Of a stretch of 40,719 nt of DNA, positions 21,564-28,961 are shown one piece after another. The position numbers were made by a program, and so were the translations under genes. Each line of letters starts with the position of its first letter. Position 1 is the first letter of the stretch. Source of the stretch: a virus (Duplodnaviria; Heunggongvirae; Uroviricota; Caudoviricetes); the IMG/VR virus record IMGVR_UViG_2734482569_000014, one strand, 5' to 3'. Below the pieces are notes generated by a model. The model ran no database searches. It was not told the origin of the DNA and saw nothing but the letters and a program-made list of their open reading frames with translations.

Positions 21564-21959
21564 CTAACCTCGCATGTCAAAGCCAGATTTCTGAAAATCT
21601 CTGTAGACTTCCGGATTGTTGAAGGCCGGAAATTTGGCTTTATGAGCTGCGGACTTTATCGCTTCGCAATAGGCTTTATCACCGTTACTGGTAGATATTT
21701 TTAACGCCGTGCCATCCTGAGAGAATTCCATATGCAACCTGCATTTTTTCCCTTTCCAGTTATGCGGCTCATCAAGTTTGGCATTAATTGCAGCTCTGAT
21801 TCCCCGCGCTTGCGCCCCCCATTCATCCTGATCATCCCAGCGTCCTGAACTGCAACTACCTGTAGCAGTAGTTTTGTGGCAATCTGAAGGGTGTAAAGGT
21901 GTGCATCCCGCAACAAAACCGACCCAAAAAGTCAACATAACGATTTTCTTTAATCCCAC
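21564..21959 (-). CDS. Lipoprotein with divergent TolA domain-III-like C-terminal module
   Basis: GTG start with GAGGAG SD; signal peptide plus lipobox FVAGC; C-terminal region shares the two-Cys pattern (GKKCRLHMEF...GDKAYCEAIK...PEVYRDF) with the paralogue at 22110..22538. Confidence 0.55.
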   Translation of the reverse strand: MGLKKIVMLTFWVGFVAGCTPLHPSDCHKTTATGSCSSGRWDDQDEWGAQARGIRAAINAKLDEPHNWKGKKCRLHMEFSQDGTALKISTSNGDKAYCEAIKSAAHKAKFPAFNNPEVYRDFQKSGFDMRG

Positions 21960-22109
21960 TTCTTGCTCCTCAATCCATTAAAATCTCAGCAATAGTAGTT
22001 GTTACGTCCGCCACTGGCTCAGAGCTGACTATCCGCTAAATTTAGCTCAGTGCCGTAGCTGTGTCAGAACAAACCTAAGCCGAAACCGTTTATTACAAAA
22101 CAATAAATA

Positions 22110-22538
22110 TCAGGGTTTAAAATCCAGCACCCCATTTTGAAATACTTTATATACTTCCGGCGAAGGGGGGGCAGGTATATCAGCATTCTTTATCGCATTC
22201 ATCGCTTCACGACATAAATCGAGGTCTCCACTTTCTCTTTTAACCTCCAGTAGAAGGCCATTCGGGGCCATATGCATTCTCAGTGTACACTCTTTTCCTG
22301 AATACTTACTCGCATCCCCGAACTGTTTTTCGATGGCGCTCTTGATTTGATGGGCATACAGACGGATATCCTCACTAACATCAGAAGTACGTTCAGATGA
22401 ACTCACATACTGTGTCTCTATTGCTTTATCGGAGTAATATGATGTACGGTCATGATAATTTGTCGATACAGCATCAGTGCACCCGATAATAATCCCACTA
22501 ATAATCAACGTAAGAATTGATGCGCTACGAAAACCCAT
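22110..22538 (-). CDS. Lipoprotein with TolA C-terminal domain (domain III)-like module
   Basis: Signal peptide plus lipobox IIGC; C-terminus YAHQIKSAIEKQFGDASKYSGKECTLRMHMAPNGLLLEVKRESGDLDLCREAMNAIKNADIPAPPSPEVYKVFQNGVLDFKP is near-collinear with the E. coli TolA C-terminal domain as I recall it. Confidence 0.7.
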   Translation of the reverse strand: MGFRSASILTLIISGIIIGCTDAVSTNYHDRTSYYSDKAIETQYVSSSERTSDVSEDIRLYAHQIKSAIEKQFGDASKYSGKECTLRMHMAPNGLLLEVKRESGDLDLCREAMNAIKNADIPAPPSPEVYKVFQNGVLDFKP

Positions 22539-23582: not shown

Positions 23583-24125
23583 TCAAGCCATTTTCTCAGC
23601 AAATGATTCACGCATGGGAATATATAGGGCATACTCAGCAACAGCTAACCAATTAGCAATCCGTTTTTCGCATGTGCTAAAACACCACTCTGGGTGTGCA
23701 TCATTTAGCAATTCAGCCATTTTGCGCTTAGTCATCCCCCGCCCTTCATAGCGTTGCCGGAGAATGCAAATCAATCCTGGATGCTCTGCCAGCACCTCAC
23801 TTATGACTCGATCAATACATAACGCCTCTGCATCAGTACAATGCGCCAGCCAGCTCTTTTGCTTGCCGTTGATCATCTCTCGCAAAAACGCTTCCAGCTC
23901 AGCTTTCTCTATTCCCGCTTTTTTCATTCTGCGCAGGGCTTCATTAATGGCTGTTTTCGTCAGTTTTTTGGATGCCAACAACTGATTGAACATATTCCCT
24001 GACCTGCCACCGCCAATATACGACCAGCGCCCCCACATACGTAGTTTTCCCTGAATCCAGACACTTTCCAGCGTGGTGAGGCGAAGGTGTTCTCCGCTTT
24101 TTCCTGTATTCGTTGGGTAAATCAT
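23583..24125 (-). CDS. Putative late antiterminator Q-like protein
   Basis: 180 aa ORF that is the last gene before the terminator and late-control gap upstream of the lysis cassette; assignment by position, family not verified. Confidence 0.4.
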   Translation of the reverse strand: MIYPTNTGKSGEHLRLTTLESVWIQGKLRMWGRWSYIGGGRSGNMFNQLLASKKLTKTAINEALRRMKKAGIEKAELEAFLREMINGKQKSWLAHCTDAEALCIDRVISEVLAEHPGLICILRQRYEGRGMTKRKMAELLNDAHPEWCFSTCEKRIANWLAVAEYALYIPMRESFAEKMA

Positions 24126-24412
24126 AAATGACCTTTCTTTCTCCAGATTTCTTGTGTGCGAAAAACCCCTTCAGCATGCATCAGGCGCAATTCTTCTTTG
24201 GTGTAATCGCTGGTTTTTACCCGCCCGTCGATTAGATCGTGGCATGAGCTACAGGCTATCGCCGCCTGCATATCATGTGGTTTTGTCGCTGTTCCGCACG
24301 TCCCCGCCAGCCTGTAATGCGCCAGCACAGAGGTTTCGGGATTGTGATTGCAGTAGCCAGGGATTCTGATCTGGCACATCTGGCCTTTAGCCGCTTTACG
24401 TAAATTCACCAT
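24122..24412 (-). CDS. YbcO-like (DUF1364) Cys-rich nin-region protein
   Basis: 96 aa with CQIRIPGYCNH...CSSCHDL cysteine pattern; same size as the DLP12 ybcO product as I recall. Confidence 0.5.
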   Translation of the reverse strand: MVNLRKAAKGQMCQIRIPGYCNHNPETSVLAHYRLAGTCGTATKPHDMQAAIACSSCHDLIDGRVKTSDYTKEELRLMHAEGVFRTQEIWRKKGHL

Positions 24413-25011
24413 TACGCAAACTCCAGTAGTTGTGCGGCCACATTTTCAACTTCCTCCTGAGAGGAGAATTTACGGAACAGAATCCAGTTCCACAGCACAT
24501 TCAGTACAGATTTATAAACCTGCTGAAACTCGACTTCGTCCATATTCGCAAAAGCGATGGATTTTGCCCGACGCCCACGGCTACCGTCCGGATAAATATG
24601 CTCGGTGTAAAATCCGGCCTGAATGGTTACCCACTCGCGGAAAGCCTCAAACGACTTTAGCAACGCCGTATCCCGGGTTCTACGAGTCGCAACGGTGTTA
24701 AGGTATTGCTCTGCGGCATCACTCAGGGCTGGCGTGTGTTCCCGACCAACTGATTCGCACAGGTAATCAACGAAACCAGACAGCAGTTCTCGTTCGCGAG
24801 GCGTGATCGCCCCACCGACCGGAGTCCAGTAATCGAATCCCAGTTGCAGGAGTTTGAAAAAACGCTTGTGGAATGCGTAGTTACGCACACGCTTAAAGTC
24901 TGCGTGTATCCACTCACCTATTTTGATTTGATGCAGAAAATCGCAACTCTCCGGCGTCGCCGGGAGAAGTAAACCAGAAGAGGTTTGTTTGACCAGTTGT
25001 ATATGCGCCAT
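24412..25011 (-). CDS. Nin-region hypothetical protein (DUF1367-like)
   Basis: 199 aa ORF upstream of the YbcO-like gene in the same operon; family guess from memory only. Confidence 0.4.
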   Translation of the reverse strand: MAHIQLVKQTSSGLLLPATPESCDFLHQIKIGEWIHADFKRVRNYAFHKRFFKLLQLGFDYWTPVGGAITPRERELLSGFVDYLCESVGREHTPALSDAAEQYLNTVATRRTRDTALLKSFEAFREWVTIQAGFYTEHIYPDGSRGRRAKSIAFANMDEVEFQQVYKSVLNVLWNWILFRKFSSQEEVENVAAQLLEFA

Positions 25012-25291
25012 TTCTCAATCTCTCGATGGCGCAGCGCAGCAGATGCCAGTTGTTCAGGCTGACGAATAAAGTATAAATAAACTGGCTATGGTGTAAAGCC
25101 CCACATAGCATGAACAAACACTACATATCAAATAGCTGGTACAAGGATAGAAATACGACACTTATTATTAAAAACGATTAGATAAATTACATTTTAATGT
25201 TATGCAAAAGTTCTTTTTTATCATAACATTTCAATAAAAGCATTACAGATGCAATCATCCCGTCATCATCAATTATTTAAGGTGGTTAAAC

Positions 25292-25378
25292 ATGGAAAAT
25301 AACAAGTTCGCACATCTCGCTCCTTTTTTATCCGTAATCCTTTTCGCTTGTTGTTTTATATGGGCATTATTTTTATAA
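25292..25378 (+). CDS. Small hydrophobic peptide (28 aa), candidate membrane peptide
   Basis: AAGGTGG SD 6 nt before ATG; hand translation MENNKFAHLAPFLSVILFACCFIWALFL; lies in AT-rich intergenic DNA; below track cutoff. Confidence 0.3.
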   Translation: MENNKFAHLAPFLSVILFACCFIWALFL

Positions 25379-25786
25379 AGTAGCCACATGATAAGTTGCT
25401 GGAATCATATTTCCCACTCAAGTCATTAACATTTGATAAGATATATCTAAAAGGACGCCTTTACATTATTTATGCGTATATAATTTATTTATATACACAG
25501 TAAAGGTATCCTGGGAAAATATTTATCGTTAAAAAATACATCATAAATAATTAAGCTGAAATTTCAGAACACAACTAATACACACAATAAGGTTCAGTAA
25601 CAGTAATCTATGTGGACTACATCGAGATTTTTTGATTAAACTTTAATAACTTATTCCTAACACACAGAATGCATAAACTAAAAGTAAAACAAATAGTTAT
25701 ACGAAAAACAACCATATTTATTCTATCTTCTCCTCTAATCAACATATCAATTATGTGTTTCATAACAGCTTGACATAACCCTCCAA

Positions 25787-25809
25787 AAGATGCATTTTTA
25801 ATGCATGTT
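25787..25809 (+). promoter_or_regulatory. NsrR-type operator-like inverted repeat upstream of the YeaR-like gene
   Basis: AAGATGCATTTTTAATGCATGTT: ATGCATT arms inverted around a short spacer; a perfect TTGACA lies at 25770..25775. Confidence 0.4.
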
Positions 25810-25824
25810 TTGGAGGAGGTGGTT

Positions 25825-26163
25825 ATGACACACAAGAGAATTCCTAAAGATTGGGTAATCAAACGCTCAACTCCGTTCTTCACAAAAGAGAACGTACCTT
25901 CAGCGTTATTAACACATCATAATACAGCAGCAGGTGTTTTTGGGCAGTTGTGCGTAATGGAAGGCACTGTAACATATTATGGTTTTACTGATGAGAATGC
26001 TACTGAACCGGAGATAAAAGTAGTCATTAATGCTGGCGCTTTTGCAACAAGCCCACCACAATACTGGCACCGTGTTGAACTAAGCGATGATGCTCAGTTT
26101 AATATTAACTTTTGGGTCGCTCCAGACTTTTCGGGCGAAAAAGTCTATAGCACCAAAAAATAG
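25825..26163 (+). CDS. YeaR-like DUF1971 protein (tellurite-resistance TehB-associated domain)
   Basis: Likely start MTHKRIPKDW with GGAGGAGG SD; strong resemblance to E. coli YeaR as recalled (RSTPF...FNI.F.VAP). Confidence 0.7.
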   Translation: MTHKRIPKDWVIKRSTPFFTKENVPSALLTHHNTAAGVFGQLCVMEGTVTYYGFTDENATEPEIKVVINAGAFATSPPQYWHRVELSDDAQFNINFWVAPDFSGEKVYSTKK

Positions 26164-26202
26164 ATGATCATATTAAAAATGCTTTAACAGTCAGACCCGG
26201 CA

Positions 26203-26240
26203 GGGCTATCCCCGACGGGTCTCATTTTTGTAAATATATT
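26203..26240 (+). terminator. Intrinsic terminator candidate after the YeaR-like gene
   Basis: AGACCCG...CGGGTCT inverted repeat followed by CATTTTTG on the plus strand, about 40 nt after the stop. Confidence 0.4.
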
Positions 26241-26783
26241 GGTTCTACATTGACAGGAGACTTCAACCATAAGAAGTAATCTGAATACTTGAGCAATAAA
26301 TTTACTTAAGATTAATGAGCGCACCTTGCCGGACAAAGATAAACCAAGGTAACACCTTTTTTCTAGCCAGTATGTAATCAATCAGAAAGCCGCTCCATAA
26401 GAACAACAGCAAGACAATAAATTGCCATTACAGCCGCAATAGCCAGCGCACATTTGAGAACCAGCACGACAACCCCCTGTATTAGACGCACACCAGTCCT
26501 GATAAATATGAGGCTGTCTCGTCAGTGATTCAATACAACTATTGGGTATAGTTTCTGTGATTTTATTCTGTAGAAATGGAACACAACAACCAGTCACCAC
26601 CAGCACTTCCTTAAATGCTCTAAGTCAGAAACAAGCCAACATTTTAGTCCGCTTTGAGCGATCTGCAGACATTGCTAGCAGCCTTCTGTGTGAATTCTCA
26701 GGGAGCAGGTCGGCATAGCATCACGTTGAGGCTCTTACCCTACTTGTTCACACCAACCCTAACTCCACAGACTGATTCATAAA

Positions 26784-27785
26784 TTAGTAATCTGCGTGTT
26801 TCGCACTTTTCAGAAATGCTTTCATATTTTCATTAGGTCGCTCAATTTCGAAGTTACTTCCATATAACTCTTGTAATTTTGGCCATAACTTACTTAATAA
26901 CCCTCTCCTGCGATAAAATGGATGTATCCAAACGGTAGATAGGTACGGAGAATTTGCATTTGAATTGTTTATTGTGACCAGCCCAACTAAACATTGTCGA
27001 TAACCACTATTATCCATTGATTGTATTTCTTCGACGAATGGATACGCGATTACATCAGTCCAACCATGATCGGTTGTATCCCATTGCATTCCGTCATGAC
27101 ATTCCTTCGACTGATAGCGGCGTAAAGCTACACACGCGAGCTTTTGCCAATCTGGAGAATTAATTGTGATCTCTTCATCGTATGACGCGCCTATTGGAGC
27201 GGGTATTGGTCTGATTAATCCAGCATGGCATTCATCATAGAACTTCATGTTTCCCTCAGAAACGTTGTGTACGTTGGGTTGCTCCATGTGTGCGCCATTC
27301 AAAAATAGCTCTGATAGTAGTGTATCTACACTGTAATCTTTATTGATTATTGTCGGCTTAGAGTTTTTCTTATTAAGGCCGCGAGTAACGATTTTTTGAT
27401 CAATGTTAACAACATGGAATAATCCGTCGGGGAGGCTAGCGAACCACGATGGGGCATCGGACCAGAATAGCATGCCTTTTGTACTTCTTAAGAGTTTAAT
27501 TAAGTTAATACAAGCTTCTTCACTAGTCTTGCCGTTGATGCGAAGTATGTTAGGACTAAAGTAATATTCATCCATATCAGGGAATGCAGCTTCGCAAAAC
27601 TCCTGTACATAATTTAGCACCTGGATTCTACAGAGATCATCATAGCTGGTAATAACTAAGGGGGTATCTTCATTACTATTATGATTATCAATAATGCAAT
27701 CTATAGCGAGACTTACTGCTTTGCGTATCACTTCAGTTGAATCTAACGACTCTAAAAATTTTGTCTTTCGTGTGCGAATATCCAT
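26784..27785 (-). CDS. Two-domain protein with C-terminal GNAT acetyltransferase-like domain
   Basis: 333 aa; C-terminal VWIHPFYRRRGLLSKLW resembles the GNAT acetyl-CoA-binding motif; N-terminal about 240 aa unassigned; AT-rich codon usage. Confidence 0.5.
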   Translation of the reverse strand: MDIRTRKTKFLESLDSTEVIRKAVSLAIDCIIDNHNSNEDTPLVITSYDDLCRIQVLNYVQEFCEAAFPDMDEYYFSPNILRINGKTSEEACINLIKLLRSTKGMLFWSDAPSWFASLPDGLFHVVNIDQKIVTRGLNKKNSKPTIINKDYSVDTLLSELFLNGAHMEQPNVHNVSEGNMKFYDECHAGLIRPIPAPIGASYDEEITINSPDWQKLACVALRRYQSKECHDGMQWDTTDHGWTDVIAYPFVEEIQSMDNSGYRQCLVGLVTINNSNANSPYLSTVWIHPFYRRRGLLSKLWPKLQELYGSNFEIERPNENMKAFLKSAKHADY

Positions 27786-27800
27786 GTATGACCTGCGCTA

Positions 27801-28823
27801 TTAAAATTCATGAATGAACGGTTTGTCATCTGGTTGCAAAATGGTGGTTTTATTCGTTGCTACATTTAAACTGTTGTAGAGCATAATTGCCAGGTTCGAT
27901 GCATTTTCAATCAGCGTTTCAAGATCCTGGTCTGTAATCACTACGAGGTTCCCTTCTTTATCCTTTCCACCACGATGCACTAAGTGATTTCGATTGAGGG
28001 TTGCCAATTCAATAGCTTCTATCGGACAGTCTTTTTGTACTTTTATATCGAATGTAGCTTCATAGCGGTCGATTACCTTTTTAGTGCTATGCCAGCTTGC
28101 ACTGATCAAGTGTTCCTTGATTGACCTGATTAGCTCTCCCCTAATTTTCTCGATGGGTTCACCCTTGAAAGGCAACGCAGCAATATCTTTGCTTACTTTA
28201 AATTCAGTCTTACCTTTTTCTATACAATTGGCTATGTAGACATCATCTTTCTCTATAGAATTAATGAATAGCTCAACATAAAGCGTTTCCAAAGCTGTAA
28301 TAACATTCGTGTAGAGCAAACTAAGCAAGTGGTTTTTTTGCTGTTGTTCAGTTTTATCTTTTGCAAGTTTTTTTATTTTATCGATATTATCAATGAATTT
28401 TAAATACGGATTACCGGAAGACGTTACAGCGTCGTAGATATCATCATCGTACCAATCATCTATATTATTTGAGTTTCCAGACCAGTCAAAACATTGTGTT
28501 TGTAATTCATCTACTAATTCCTCAATATACTCAGATTTAACATATTGACCGAAGATGGATTGTAGTTCTTCGCTCGCATCATACGGCCCGCCATATATGT
28601 AAGCATAGCCACCTTCTCTACTTTCATACGGACAAGCATTTGCCGGATCTTCAAAGTTTTCAAAGAACCAGTTTTTCATTACTTCGAGTTGATCTTTTTT
28701 GCTTATGTATTTTAAAGATTTTAGTGGAACTTTCTTTCCATTAACCTCGAAAACAATTTTCACGATGTAACGCTCCCTTGTATCAATTGCGCAACTATTA
28801 TACCACAGCGAAATACAGGGCAT
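27801..28823 (-). CDS. HEPN-motif protein (candidate RNase, Abi-like)
   Basis: Likely start MPCISLWYN with AAGGAGG SD (track ORF begins upstream at a GTG, 28892); C-terminal LNRNHLVHRGG fits the R-x4-H HEPN signature; AT-rich; 15 nt upstream of the GNAT gene on the same strand. Confidence 0.45.
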   Translation of the reverse strand: MPCISLWYNSCAIDTRERYIVKIVFEVNGKKVPLKSLKYISKKDQLEVMKNWFFENFEDPANACPYESREGGYAYIYGGPYDASEELQSIFGQYVKSEYIEELVDELQTQCFDWSGNSNNIDDWYDDDIYDAVTSSGNPYLKFIDNIDKIKKLAKDKTEQQQKNHLLSLLYTNVITALETLYVELFINSIEKDDVYIANCIEKGKTEFKVSKDIAALPFKGEPIEKIRGELIRSIKEHLISASWHSTKKVIDRYEATFDIKVQKDCPIEAIELATLNRNHLVHRGGKDKEGNLVVITDQDLETLIENASNLAIMLYNSLNVATNKTTILQPDDKPFIHEF

Positions 28824-28961
28824 AACCTGCCTCCTTAAACTAACATACCATGAGCCAGCAATGTCCGCTATTGGCACAAAGCGGACAACCACGCTAGCTC
28901 TCCCCTGTGCCAGAAAAATGTCAATTTACATATGAACTAATGCTCTTTGATCTAGTAACGT

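What the first reader, a model, noticed from the sequence alone, without database searches (positions are those of the whole stretch)
25292..25378. Well-initiated 28-codon hydrophobic peptide ORF in AT-rich intergenic DNA
AAGGTGG lies 6 nt upstream of an ATG whose ORF I translated as MENNKFAHLAPFLSVILFACCFIWALFL, a single predicted transmembrane helix. Small membrane peptides with strong SD sequences in prophage accessory regions are often type I toxins or regulatory membrane peptides. It is below the size cutoff of the ORF track.
Basis: seen in the sequence. Interest (0 to 1): 0.4.

Follow-up and report, generated by a model that had tools for sequence, protein, structure and literature searches.

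The report
Unannotated prophage membrane micro-protein gene
The 28-codon reading frame is a real, conserved but never-annotated gene for a tiny single-helix membrane peptide, carried on a ~230-bp cassette in lambda-like prophages of about a fifth of E. coli genomes; its job, toxin or membrane-protein modulator, is still unknown.

Summary
AAGGTGG (25279-25285) lies 6 nt before an ATG at 25292, and the frame runs 28 codons (MENNKFAHLAPFLSVILFACCFIWALFL) to a TAA at 25376-25378, in DNA of 26-34% GC.

It is more than chance. The same frame occurs in about 1,170 of 5,426 complete E. coli genomes, in Shigella flexneri and in E. ruysiae. It was unannotated in every hit row shown.

- All 134 copies found through a non-coding upstream anchor keep exactly 28 codons.
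- Only this frame is open in all 18 distinct sequences.
- pN/pS is 0.12-0.35 in this frame and 0.6-1.7 in the other two forward frames.
- The frame has no insertions or deletions, while its leader does.

The unit is a ~230-bp cassette, from -138 to +92 relative to the ATG:
- a 44-nt AT-rich block, 89-98% conserved;
- a 17-nt spacer of constant length;
- a TANNAT -10-like element;
- a ~56-nt leader, the SD and the ORF.

It lies in the accessory hotspot between the replication and nin/Q genes, opposite to phage early transcription. Its neighbours vary: hokD/sok, iteAS or DUF1971.

No known family matches. The type I toxin reading is neither shown nor excluded: the mRNA is unstructured, and only weak antisense promoter-like sites exist.

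Verdict: a new small-membrane-protein family of ordinary kind, of moderate interest.

The parts
25161..25204 (+). A 44-nt AT-rich block (CTTATTATTAAAAACGATTAGATAAATTACATTTTAATGTTATG). It is the most conserved part of the cassette. I read it as an UP-element-like and -35 region, possibly also a regulator binding site. Its 3' end (AATGTTATG, 25196-25204) is the left arm of a 9-bp inverted repeat.
   Evidence: The block is 89-98% identical, without gaps, between four lineages whose ORFs are only 79-90% identical. It is present in front of every copy found. The left boundary of homology in the foreign-context copy L105 lies at -138.
25205..25221 (+). A 17-nt spacer that varies in sequence but is constant in length.
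   Evidence: It is 41-53% identical between deep lineages, yet exactly 17 nt long in all 65 distinct cassettes. Pairing within it is no better than chance.
25222..25230 (+). CATAACATT, the right arm of the inverted repeat. It contains a -10-like hexamer, TAACAT (25224-25229), which is TANNAT in all lineages. The predicted transcription start is near 25234-25237.
   Evidence: The strict consensus scan did not call a + strand promoter here, so this assignment is an inference from conservation geometry.
25236..25278 (+). A poorly conserved leader (5' UTR).
   Evidence: It is 52-66% identical between lineages and carries indels. Each lineage has a small hairpin here, but their strand assignment is ambiguous. 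There is no thermodynamic signal.
25279..25285 (+). Shine-Dalgarno sequence AAGGTGG, 6 nt before the ATG.
   Evidence: The sequence is AAGGTGA in type A, AAGGTAG in L105 and the weaker AAAGTGA in type B.
25292..25378 (+). The 28-codon ORF MENNKFAHLAPFLSVILFACCFIWALFL plus a TAA stop. The predicted membrane helix is residues 9-28 (25316-25375).
25272..25298 (-). A promoter-like site on the opposite strand. Its -35 TTTCCA is the complement of 25293-25298, inside ATG-GAA-A. Its -10 AATAAT is the complement of 25272-25277. The spacer is 15 nt here and 16 nt in the other lineages. It would transcribe leftwards through the leader and the conserved block.
   Evidence: It is the only promoter-like element found at one position in all 65 distinct cassettes. 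The standard scan flagged it in L002, L003 and L004. It is weak evidence, because the -35 is fixed by the first codons.
25366..25394 (-). A second opposite-strand promoter-like site, TTATCA-17-AATAAT, at the 3' end of the ORF.
   Evidence: 9 of 12 matches. A relaxed match lies at the same position in 59 of 65 cassettes. The -10 lies in the coding sequence, so it is not independent evidence.

Best explanation
This is a genuine protein-coding gene that annotation pipelines miss because it has only 28 codons.

The gene and its product (shown or predicted)
- It encodes a micro-protein with an 8-residue polar N-terminus (MENNK-AH).
- A 20-residue C-terminal helix should span or anchor in the inner membrane.

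The cassette (shown, except the promoter reading)
- The gene sits on a self-contained 'moron' cassette of about 230 bp.
- The cassette holds a highly conserved AT-rich promoter region, read as an UP-like/-35 block, a 17-bp spacer and a TANNAT -10.
- A leader of about 56 nt, the SD and the ORF follow.
- In most contexts a hairpin terminator comes next. It is shared with convergent hokD, or is a bidirectional terminator.

Position and expression (inferred)
- The cassette lies at the nin-proximal edge of the accessory hotspot of Escherichia lambda-like prophages.
- It points against the phage early-right operon. It is therefore probably expressed from the repressed prophage and opposed by convergent transcription after induction.

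Mechanism (inferred)
- Invariant residues P11, S14, L17, F18, C21, W24, A25 and L28 lie on one side of the helix. The variable positions lie on the other.
- The peptide therefore most likely acts through specific helix-helix packing in the membrane, with itself or with a host or phage membrane protein. MgtS, PmrR, KdpF and AcrZ work this way.
- It is less likely to act by non-specific membrane damage.

Sub-claim probabilities
- Translated gene under selection: about 0.85.
- Autonomous prophage accessory cassette: about 0.8.
- Modulator of a membrane partner or exclusion-type role: about 0.45.
- Antisense-controlled toxin: about 0.2-0.25.
For: Sequence as described.

Conservation island
- About 80%-identical relatives align only over the SD plus the ORF.
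- 1,174-1,177 of 5,426 complete E. coli genomes carry the element, and at least 1,063 carry it at full length.
- It is also in Shigella flexneri and E. ruysiae.

Coding evidence
- 126 of 126 pattern hits and 134 of 134 hits found through the upstream anchor have exactly 28 codons.
- Only frame +0 is open in all 18 distinct sequences.
- There are 17 synonymous against 19 non-synonymous codon variants, where neutrality predicts about 1:4.
- pN/pS is 0.12-0.35 in frame, with binomial p down to 1e-4. It is 0.56-1.7 in the other two frames.
- The ORF has no indels, while the leader does.

Cassette boundaries and autonomy
- The L105 copy has unrelated flanks on both sides. Only -138 to +92 matches E. 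coli.
- At least four different right-hand neighbours occur.

Promoter geometry
- The block is 89-98% identical, the spacer is always 17 nt long though only 41-53% identical, and TANNAT is conserved.

Other support
- The start region is open and unstructured.
- Conservation has a helical-face bias: resultant 0.45, permutation p 0.047.
- The hotspot context lies between DUF1376/DnaC-like replication genes and DUF1367/DUF1364/Q.
Against: - There is no direct evidence of transcription or translation. No paper or supplement searched contains the peptide.
- Diversity is limited to 3-4 deep lineages with 15-18 substitutions per pair, and the pairwise tests are not independent.
- The + strand promoter matches the sigma-70 consensus poorly (about 7-8 of 12), and the strict scan did not call it.
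- The commonest lineage (type B) has a weakened SD, AAAGTGA.
- The helical-face test is only marginal (p about 0.05).
- The 44-nt block is more conserved than a simple promoter needs to be. A further function of the cassette, such as an RNA or a protein-binding site, remains unexplained.
Confidence: 0.6

Rival explanations
1. The cassette is a type I toxin-antitoxin module. The peptide would be a membrane-depolarising toxin. An antisense RNA would hold its translation in check. That RNA would start at the opposite-strand promoter overlapping the start codon or SD, or at the one at the 3' end of the ORF. The unusually conserved 44-nt block would be the body or 3' end of that RNA.
For: - The size and hydrophobicity are those of Ibs, ShoB, TisB, DinQ or ZorO (own knowledge of these families).
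- The peptide sits in the same hotspot as hokD/sok and other defence cargo.
- An opposite-strand promoter-like site lies at a fixed position in 65 of 65 variants. A second lies at the 3' end of the ORF.
- A terminator-like hairpin on the minus strand lies at the left edge of the cassette in types A and B. In L105 it shows a compensatory G:C to A:T change.
- The non-coding block is more conserved than the ORF, as is common for type I regulatory RNAs.
Against: - No toxin family matches, and no Rfam RNA matches.
- The mRNA and the candidate antisense RNAs fold no better than shuffles (|z| below 2; z 0.14).
- The start region is open with a good SD, whereas classic type I toxin mRNAs sequester it.
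- The -35 of the antisense site is dictated by codons 1-3.
- The hairpin at the left edge is weak, and in L105 no T-run follows it.
- Wobble and mismatch patterns of the hairpins do not consistently favour either strand.
- No trans-complementary repeat is conserved.
Confidence: 0.22
2. The ORF is not translated. Conservation would reflect a DNA- or RNA-level element: a promoter or terminator region for the nin operon, a non-coding RNA, or a recombination 'boundary sequence' that flanks the cargo hotspot. The open frame would be a by-product of T-rich sequence.
For: - The most conserved part of the cassette is non-coding.
- The cassette always marks the edge of a variable cargo region.
- AT-rich DNA readily yields hydrophobic ORFs (PMC11188072).
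- Promoter-like and terminator-like sites for the opposite strand lie nearby.
Against: - The excess of synonymous changes is frame-specific. It is absent in the other two forward frames.
- 17 of 31 variable sites are third codon positions.
- The start codon, the stop codon and the 28-codon length are invariant across 134 copies, while the flanks carry indels.
- Amino-acid replacements are conservative: V/I/A, L/F/V.
Confidence: 0.1
3. The ORF is a leader peptide or upstream ORF. Its translation would control the downstream DUF1971 gene (25825-26163) by attenuation or polarity.
For: In the window lineage the ORF and the DUF1971 gene share a strand. No strong terminator lies between them.
Against: - In about 80% of sampled copies there is no DUF1971 gene.
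- In those copies the ORF is followed within about 20 nt by a terminator hairpin and by a convergent gene, hokD or iteS.
- About 450 nt of AT-rich DNA and a separate TTGACA element precede the DUF1971 gene.
- The amino-acid sequence is under selection, which is unusual for a pure leader.
Confidence: 0.03

Closest known systems
Phage 'morons': autonomous promoter-gene-terminator cassettes inserted between phage genes and expressed from the prophage, e.g. lambda bor and lom (concept of Juhala/Hendrix; own knowledge)
   Same: - It is a compact unit with its own conserved promoter region and, in most contexts, a terminator hairpin.
- It is AT-richer than its surroundings.
- It is oriented against the flanking phage operon.
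- It is found in several unrelated contexts.
   Different: - It is far smaller than described morons (87-nt ORF).
- Expression in lysogens has not been shown.
- The promoter is inferred from conservation geometry, not mapped.
E. coli type I toxins of similar size: IbsA-E (18-19 aa), ShoB (26 aa), DinQ (27 aa), TisB (29 aa), ZorO (29 aa)
   Same: - It has 28 residues, almost all of them one hydrophobic helix.
- It lies in horizontally acquired AT-rich DNA.
- It neighbours another type I system, hokD/sok.
- Promoter-like sites exist on the opposite strand.
   Different: - There is no sequence similarity to any of these families.
- No identified antitoxin RNA exists.
- The leader is short and unstructured, with an exposed SD.
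- It occurs once per prophage, not in the chromosomal repeats typical of ibs/sib or ldr/rdl.
Small regulatory or accessory inner-membrane proteins: MgtS (31 aa), PmrR (29 aa), KdpF (29 aa), AcrZ (49 aa), MgrB (47 aa)
   Same: - It has a single helix of comparable length.
- Conservation concentrates on one helical face that includes small residues (S14, C21, A25). This is the pattern expected for packing against a partner helix.
   Different: - No partner is known or encoded next to it, and the neighbours vary.
- It is prophage-borne and confined to Escherichia/Shigella.
- There is no sequence similarity.
Intergenic smORF families of Enterobacteriaceae ('Entero67K', Fesenko et al. 2024, PMC11188072)
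   Same: It is an intergenic ORF of 15-70 codons. It is hydrophobic, under purifying selection and missed by annotation. This is exactly the class described there.
   Different: This peptide was not found in the held supplementary files of that paper. The cassette structure, prophage hotspot position and distribution reported here are not described there.

Membership tests
Type I toxin-antitoxin system | A small hydrophobic, membrane-targeting toxin ORF (under about 60 aa) | tested here: met
   The ORF has 28 aa. Residues 9-28 have a Kyte-Doolittle mean of 2.5.
Type I toxin-antitoxin system | An antisense or partly complementary small RNA antitoxin encoded at the locus | tested here: inconclusive
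   Opposite-strand promoter-like sites lie at fixed positions (65 of 65 and 59 of 65). There is no Rfam match. There is no folding signal. Terminators are weak. No complementary repeat is conserved.
Type I toxin-antitoxin system | A toxin mRNA whose structure hides the ribosome binding site until it is processed | tested here: not met
   The window mRNA has z 0.14. The region -60 to +90 has z -0.9 to +1.9 in five lineage representatives.
Type I toxin-antitoxin system | Growth arrest or membrane depolarisation on expression, relieved by the RNA | not testable with these tools
   This needs inducible expression with a start-codon control.
Known toxin peptide families (Hok/Gef, Ldr, Ibs, TisB, ShoB, Fst and others in Pfam/NCBIfam) | Sequence match to the family profile | tested here: not met
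   Pfam gave no hit at E up to 10. NCBIfam gave only a sub-threshold lipoprotein signal-peptide match. PHROGs gave only E of 0.1 or worse. PADLOC gave nothing.
Phage moron (autonomous accessory cassette) | The unit is found in different genomic contexts with sharp homology boundaries | tested here: met
   L105 has unrelated flanks on both sides, and only -138 to +92 matches. L094 has a different left flank. Four kinds of right flank occur.
Phage moron (autonomous accessory cassette) | Its own promoter and terminator, and a base composition unlike its neighbours | tested here: inconclusive
   GC is 26-34% against about 50%. A conserved block, 17-bp spacer and TANNAT geometry is present, but the consensus match is weak. 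A terminator hairpin follows in the hokD and iteS contexts but not clearly in the window.
Phage moron (autonomous accessory cassette) | Expression from the repressed prophage | not testable with these tools
   This needs RNA-seq or a reporter in a lysogen.
Protein-coding gene under purifying selection | Frame-specific excess of synonymous change, conserved start, stop and length | tested here: met
Bacterial lipoprotein signal peptide | A conserved lipobox, L-[ASTVI]-[GAS]-C, followed by a mature domain | tested here: not met
   Weak profile matches to lipoprotein or spanin signal peptides prompted the test. The window has L-F-A-C, but most lineages have F-V-L-C or F-V-F-C. Only 7-8 residues would remain after cleavage.
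Leader peptide or attenuator of a downstream gene | Constant linkage to the regulated gene | tested here: not met
   The DUF1971 gene follows in only about 20% of sampled copies. The others end at a terminator facing a convergent gene.

The most novel reading that the evidence does not exclude
The ~230-bp cassette could be a previously unrecognised two-gene module. A 28-aa membrane peptide would be kept in check by a divergent or antisense RNA that starts at the promoter-like site over its own start codon. The body of that RNA would be the 44-nt block, which is more conserved than the peptide. The module would serve as a new type I toxin-antitoxin or abortive-infection/exclusion device, marking the edge of the defence hotspot of Escherichia lambda-like prophages.
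Probability: 0.2. Interest if true: 0.6.

Novelty: new member of a known kind. Interest (0 to 1): 0.4.

Why it matters
About one in five complete E. coli genomes carries this gene, and no annotation, protein database or family library searched here records it. The carriers include avian and urinary pathogens and Shigella. It adds a concrete, testable case to the growing class of hidden bacterial micro-proteins. It has clear cassette boundaries, a defined conserved helix face, and a regulatory block conserved beyond what a plain promoter needs.

Its position matters too. It lies at the edge of a prophage hotspot that elsewhere holds hok/sok, an anti-phage protease system and other cargo. If it proved to be a toxin, an exclusion factor or a modulator of a host membrane protein, it would bear on how prophages change the physiology of their hosts.

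If it proved to have no phenotype, it would still be a useful marker for this hotspot and a correction to annotation.

Tried and rejected
1. Known RNA families. Rfam at E up to 5 over 24000-27500, and at E up to 1 over four related loci, found nothing at the cassette. The only relevant hit was sok beside hokD.
2. Known protein families. Pfam, NCBIfam, PHROGs and PADLOC gave nothing usable.
3. Exact look-up of four peptide variants in about 15 billion proteins found none. A tandem-peptide query, used to get round the 40-aa minimum, found only four aberrant relatives: one fused to an upstream ORF and three frameshifted.
4. E. coli K-12. The Qin prophage has ydfU-rem-hokD without the cassette.
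5. Lipoprotein reading: the lipobox is not conserved.
6. Leader peptide for the DUF1971 gene: rejected on linkage.
7. The antisense 38-aa ORF (25273-25389, minus strand) and the upstream ORF seen in type A (MQICQ...): neither is conserved.
8. A 14-nt complement of the SD region at 25539-25552: absent from sister lineages, so taken as chance.
9. Hairpins in the leader, in the inverted repeat and at the left edge. Wobble and mismatch patterns favour the + strand in some variants and the - strand in others. Loop pairing is no better than shuffled loops, and no z-score is beyond 2.
10. A functional tie to hokD. The window has no hok gene, and L005 has a truncated one behind the DUF1971 gene, so the peptide does not depend on hokD.
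11. Literature. No paper or held supplement contains the peptide, and a topical search gave nothing specific.
12. Wider taxonomic reach. A degenerate pattern over 185,579 species genomes found only S. flexneri and E. ruysiae, plus three chance hits. tblastn over 50,697 phage records found only four induced E. coli prophages. tblastn over plasmid records found two, both mislabelled chromosomes.

Full report
**1. The observation**

- AAGGTGG lies at 25279-25285, followed by the 6-nt spacer TTAAAC.
- The ATG is at 25292. Twenty-eight sense codons encode MENNKFAHLAPFLSVILFACCFIWALFL, ending in TAA at 25376-25378.
- Residues 1-8 are polar. Residues 9-28 are strongly hydrophobic (Kyte-Doolittle mean 2.5), enough for one membrane helix.
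- GC content is 26-34% across 25000-25900, against about 50% in the adjacent genes.

An ORF of this size is not remarkable in itself. One search lists 66 ORFs of at least 20 aa in a 4-kb stretch.

**2. Context**

The window is a lambda-like prophage of E. coli with its long operons on the minus strand.
- To the left of the ORF lie DUF1367 (24412-25011), DUF1364 and a Q-type antiterminator (DUF1133), all on the minus strand.
- To the right lie a plus-strand DUF1971 gene (25825-26163) and two uncharacterised minus-strand cargo genes.
- Beyond those come DUF977, DUF1627, a DnaC-like protein and a DUF1376 replication protein.

The ORF therefore lies in the accessory region between the replication and nin/Q modules. 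It points against the phage early-right transcription. RefSeq annotation has no feature there.

**3. It is conserved as an island**

- A sensitive nucleotide search with 25200-25460 hit 1,174 of 5,426 complete E. coli genomes.
- About 600 of them match at about 80% identity over only query positions 58/73/78-180. That is window 25257-25379, the SD plus the ORF.
- With a 195-nt query of the commonest lineage, 1,177 genomes match, and 1,063 of them over at least 80% of the length.
- No listed hit had an annotated feature.
- In these relatives the right-hand neighbour is not DUF1971. It is convergent hokD with its sok RNA, or the anti-phage pair iteS/iteA.
- K-12's Qin prophage lacks the element.

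**4. It is protein-coding**

A degenerate pattern scan of viral contigs returned at least 120 loci. All 126 copies then in hand had exactly 28 codons.

That pattern constrains the N-terminal half, so I repeated the collection with a 21-nt anchor in the non-coding upstream block.
- All 134 true, untruncated hits carry an intact 28-codon ORF 106-113 nt downstream.
- Among the 18 distinct ORF sequences, only frame +0 is stop-free in all.
- 17 of 31 variable sites are third codon positions.
- Distinct codon variants split 17 synonymous to 19 non-synonymous, where neutrality predicts about 1:4.

Between the deep lineages, pN/pS is 0.12-0.35 in frame, with binomial p for a synonymous excess down to 1e-4. 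The same calculation in the other two forward frames gives 0.56-1.7.

The ORF has no indels, while the leader has several. Replacements are conservative (V/I/A, L/F/V). M1-E2-N3-N4, H8, P11, L13, S14, I16-F18, C21, W24, A25, F27 and L28 are invariant.

Rare damaged alleles exist. The only relatives in a 5.8-billion-cluster protein database are one fusion with an upstream ORF and three frameshifted forms. This also shows why the intact gene is never called: it is shorter than gene-finder cut-offs. The exact peptides are absent from the collection.

**5. The unit is a cassette of about 230 bp**

An alignment of nine contexts, and a search with the most divergent copy (L105), define the boundaries. 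L105's flanks occur in none of the 5,426 E. coli genomes. Only its positions 641-870, equal to -138 to +92 relative to the ATG, match. L105 sits next to a 992-aa tail-fibre/spike-like gene, a wholly different neighbourhood.

| Segment | Identity between lineages | Notes |
|---|---|---|
| 44-nt AT-rich block (window 25161-25204) | 89-98% | no gaps |
| 17-nt spacer | 41-53% | always 17 nt long |
| 9-mer containing TANNAT (25222-25230) | 67-89% | |
| leader | 52-66% | with indels |
| 19 nt before the ATG | 70-84% | |
| ORF | 79-90% | no gaps |
| 3' flank | 44-63% | |

Conserved, then a spacer of constant length, then conserved again: this is the geometry of a sigma-70 promoter. In that reading the block supplies an UP-like and -35 region, and the start site lies near 25234-25237, giving a leader of about 56 nt.

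This is an inference. The hexamers match the consensus poorly, and the strict scan called no + strand promoter. The block is also more conserved than a plain promoter needs to be, which I cannot explain.

In a sample of 135 copies, about 70% are followed within about 20 nt by the hokD terminator hairpin. About 10% are followed by a perfect bidirectional terminator before iteS. About 20% have the window-type flank leading to DUF1971. One has another flank.

**6. Distribution**

- A degenerate pattern over one genome for each of 185,579 species found only Shigella flexneri (identical peptide) and Escherichia ruysiae, plus three chance matches.
- tblastn over 50,697 phage records found four induced E. 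coli prophages, all unannotated at this site.
- The two plasmid-collection hits are mislabelled chromosomes.

The family is confined to Escherichia/Shigella prophages.

**7. What it is not**

- No Pfam, NCBIfam, PHROGs or PADLOC family matches, and no Rfam family matches.
- Weak similarity to lipoprotein signal peptides prompted a lipobox test. L-F-A-C in the window becomes F-V-L-C or F-V-F-C elsewhere, so it is not a lipoprotein.
- It is not a dedicated leader peptide for DUF1971, because that gene is absent from most copies.

**8. The toxin question**

For a type I toxin:
- The size and hydrophobicity fit.
- Its neighbours in the hotspot are toxin and defence genes.
- A promoter-like site on the opposite strand has its -35 (TTTCCA) over ATG-GAA-A and its -10 just 5' of the SD. 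It is present at one position in all 65 distinct cassettes.
- A second such site lies at the 3' end of the ORF.
- A weak terminator-like hairpin lies on the minus strand at the left edge of the cassette.
- The non-coding block is highly conserved.

Against:
- The -35 of the first site is dictated by codons 1-3, and the -10 of the second by codons 25-27.
- The hairpins are weak, and their wobble and mismatch patterns do not consistently favour one strand.
- None of the candidate RNAs, sense or antisense, folds better than dinucleotide shuffles. The region around the start codon is, if anything, less structured than random. This is the opposite of hok, tisB, zorO or shoB mRNAs.
- A 14-nt complement of the SD region further downstream is not conserved in sister lineages.

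I rate the toxin-antitoxin reading at about 0.2-0.25.

**9. Most likely mechanism**

Shown:
- The gene is conserved and under selection.
- It encodes a one-helix hydrophobic peptide.
- It sits on a mobile cassette in a prophage accessory hotspot.

Inferred:
- It has its own promoter.
- It is expressed in the lysogen, and convergent early transcription opposes it after induction.
- The peptide inserts in the inner membrane.

Variable helix positions (9, 10, 12, 15, 19, 20, 22, 23, 26) cluster on one face. The invariant ones (P11, S14, L17, F18, C21, W24, A25, L28 and others) lie on the opposite face (resultant 0.45, permutation p 0.047). This marginal result suggests specific helix-helix packing, with itself or with a membrane protein, as in MgtS, PmrR, KdpF or AcrZ. 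It argues against non-specific membrane damage.

**10. Novelty and interest**

The kind is well known. Small hydrophobic intergenic ORFs under purifying selection number in the tens of thousands of families in Enterobacteriaceae (PMC11188072), and prophage morons are a textbook concept.

This family itself appears undescribed. No database entry, paper or held supplement contains it.

It is a new member of a known kind. Its interest is moderate. It is raised somewhat by its prevalence (about 20% of E. coli genomes), by its position at a defence hotspot, and by the unexplained, very highly conserved upstream block.

Noticed in passing
window 25161-25230: A 44-nt AT-rich block is 89-98% identical across lineages, more than the ORF it precedes. 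It ends in a 9-bp inverted repeat, AATGTTATG-N17-CATAACATT, whose spacer varies in sequence but is always 17 nt long. 'TAGATAAATT' inside the block resembles the H-NS high-affinity motif TCGATAAATT (from memory). A plain promoter does not need this much conservation.
   Followed up: partly
window 25070-25097 (minus strand): A good promoter-like site, TTTACA-16-TATACT (10 of 12), lies about 60-85 nt upstream of the DUF1367 start. It is conserved at the same place in L002, L003 and L004, even where the first nin-like gene differs. It may be an internal promoter for the nin/Q region.
   Followed up: no
window 26784-27785 and 27801-28892 (minus strand): Two adjacent cargo genes of 333 and 363 aa lie between the replication module and the small ORF. 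Their only domain hits are faint: GNAT acetyltransferase (E 9e-4) and HEPN/RES N-terminal domain (E 2e-4). PADLOC finds nothing. They may be an undescribed toxin or defence pair in the same hotspot.
   Followed up: partly
L004 3157-6103; L002 3232-3556; L003 3215-3540: In other genomes the same hotspot, directly right of the small ORF, holds the anti-phage pair iteS/iteA or a complete hokD/sok module (Rfam sok 111-116 bits). The small ORF thus marks the nin-side edge of an exchangeable cargo site.
   Followed up: partly
L005 4104-4229: In the sister lineage of the window, a hokD gene truncated to 41 aa lies behind the DUF1971 gene. This suggests the DUF1971 segment was inserted between the small-ORF cassette and hokD. 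The window itself has lost hokD altogether.
   Followed up: partly
window 25780-25816: A 17-nt near-perfect inverted repeat (CCTCCAAAAGATGCATT / AATGCATGTTTTGGAGG, 3 nt apart) overlaps the ribosome binding site and upstream ATG of the DUF1971 gene, just after a perfect TTGACA at 25771-25776. It may be an operator or a translational hairpin for that gene.
   Followed up: no
window about 21564-22538 (minus strand); L001 565-1539: Between the Q-like gene and the lysis genes, the matching RefSeq prophage (L001) is annotated with two TolA-like ('cell envelope integrity TolA C-terminal domain') proteins. That is unusual cargo for this position. The window coordinates are inferred from two minus-strand ORFs at the corresponding position.
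   Followed up: no
P0001-P0004 (relatives in the protein database): The only database proteins related to the peptide are aberrant alleles. One 58-aa form fuses a non-conserved upstream ORF in frame, and three are frameshifted after residue 17-23. Gene finders call them only because the damage lengthens the ORF.
   Followed up: yes
L105 1410-1765: The foreign-context copy lies near sub-threshold Rfam matches to SraC/RyeA, SdsR/RyeB and CssrB. Its flanks are absent from all 5,426 E. coli genomes. The host of this contig was not identified.
   Followed up: no
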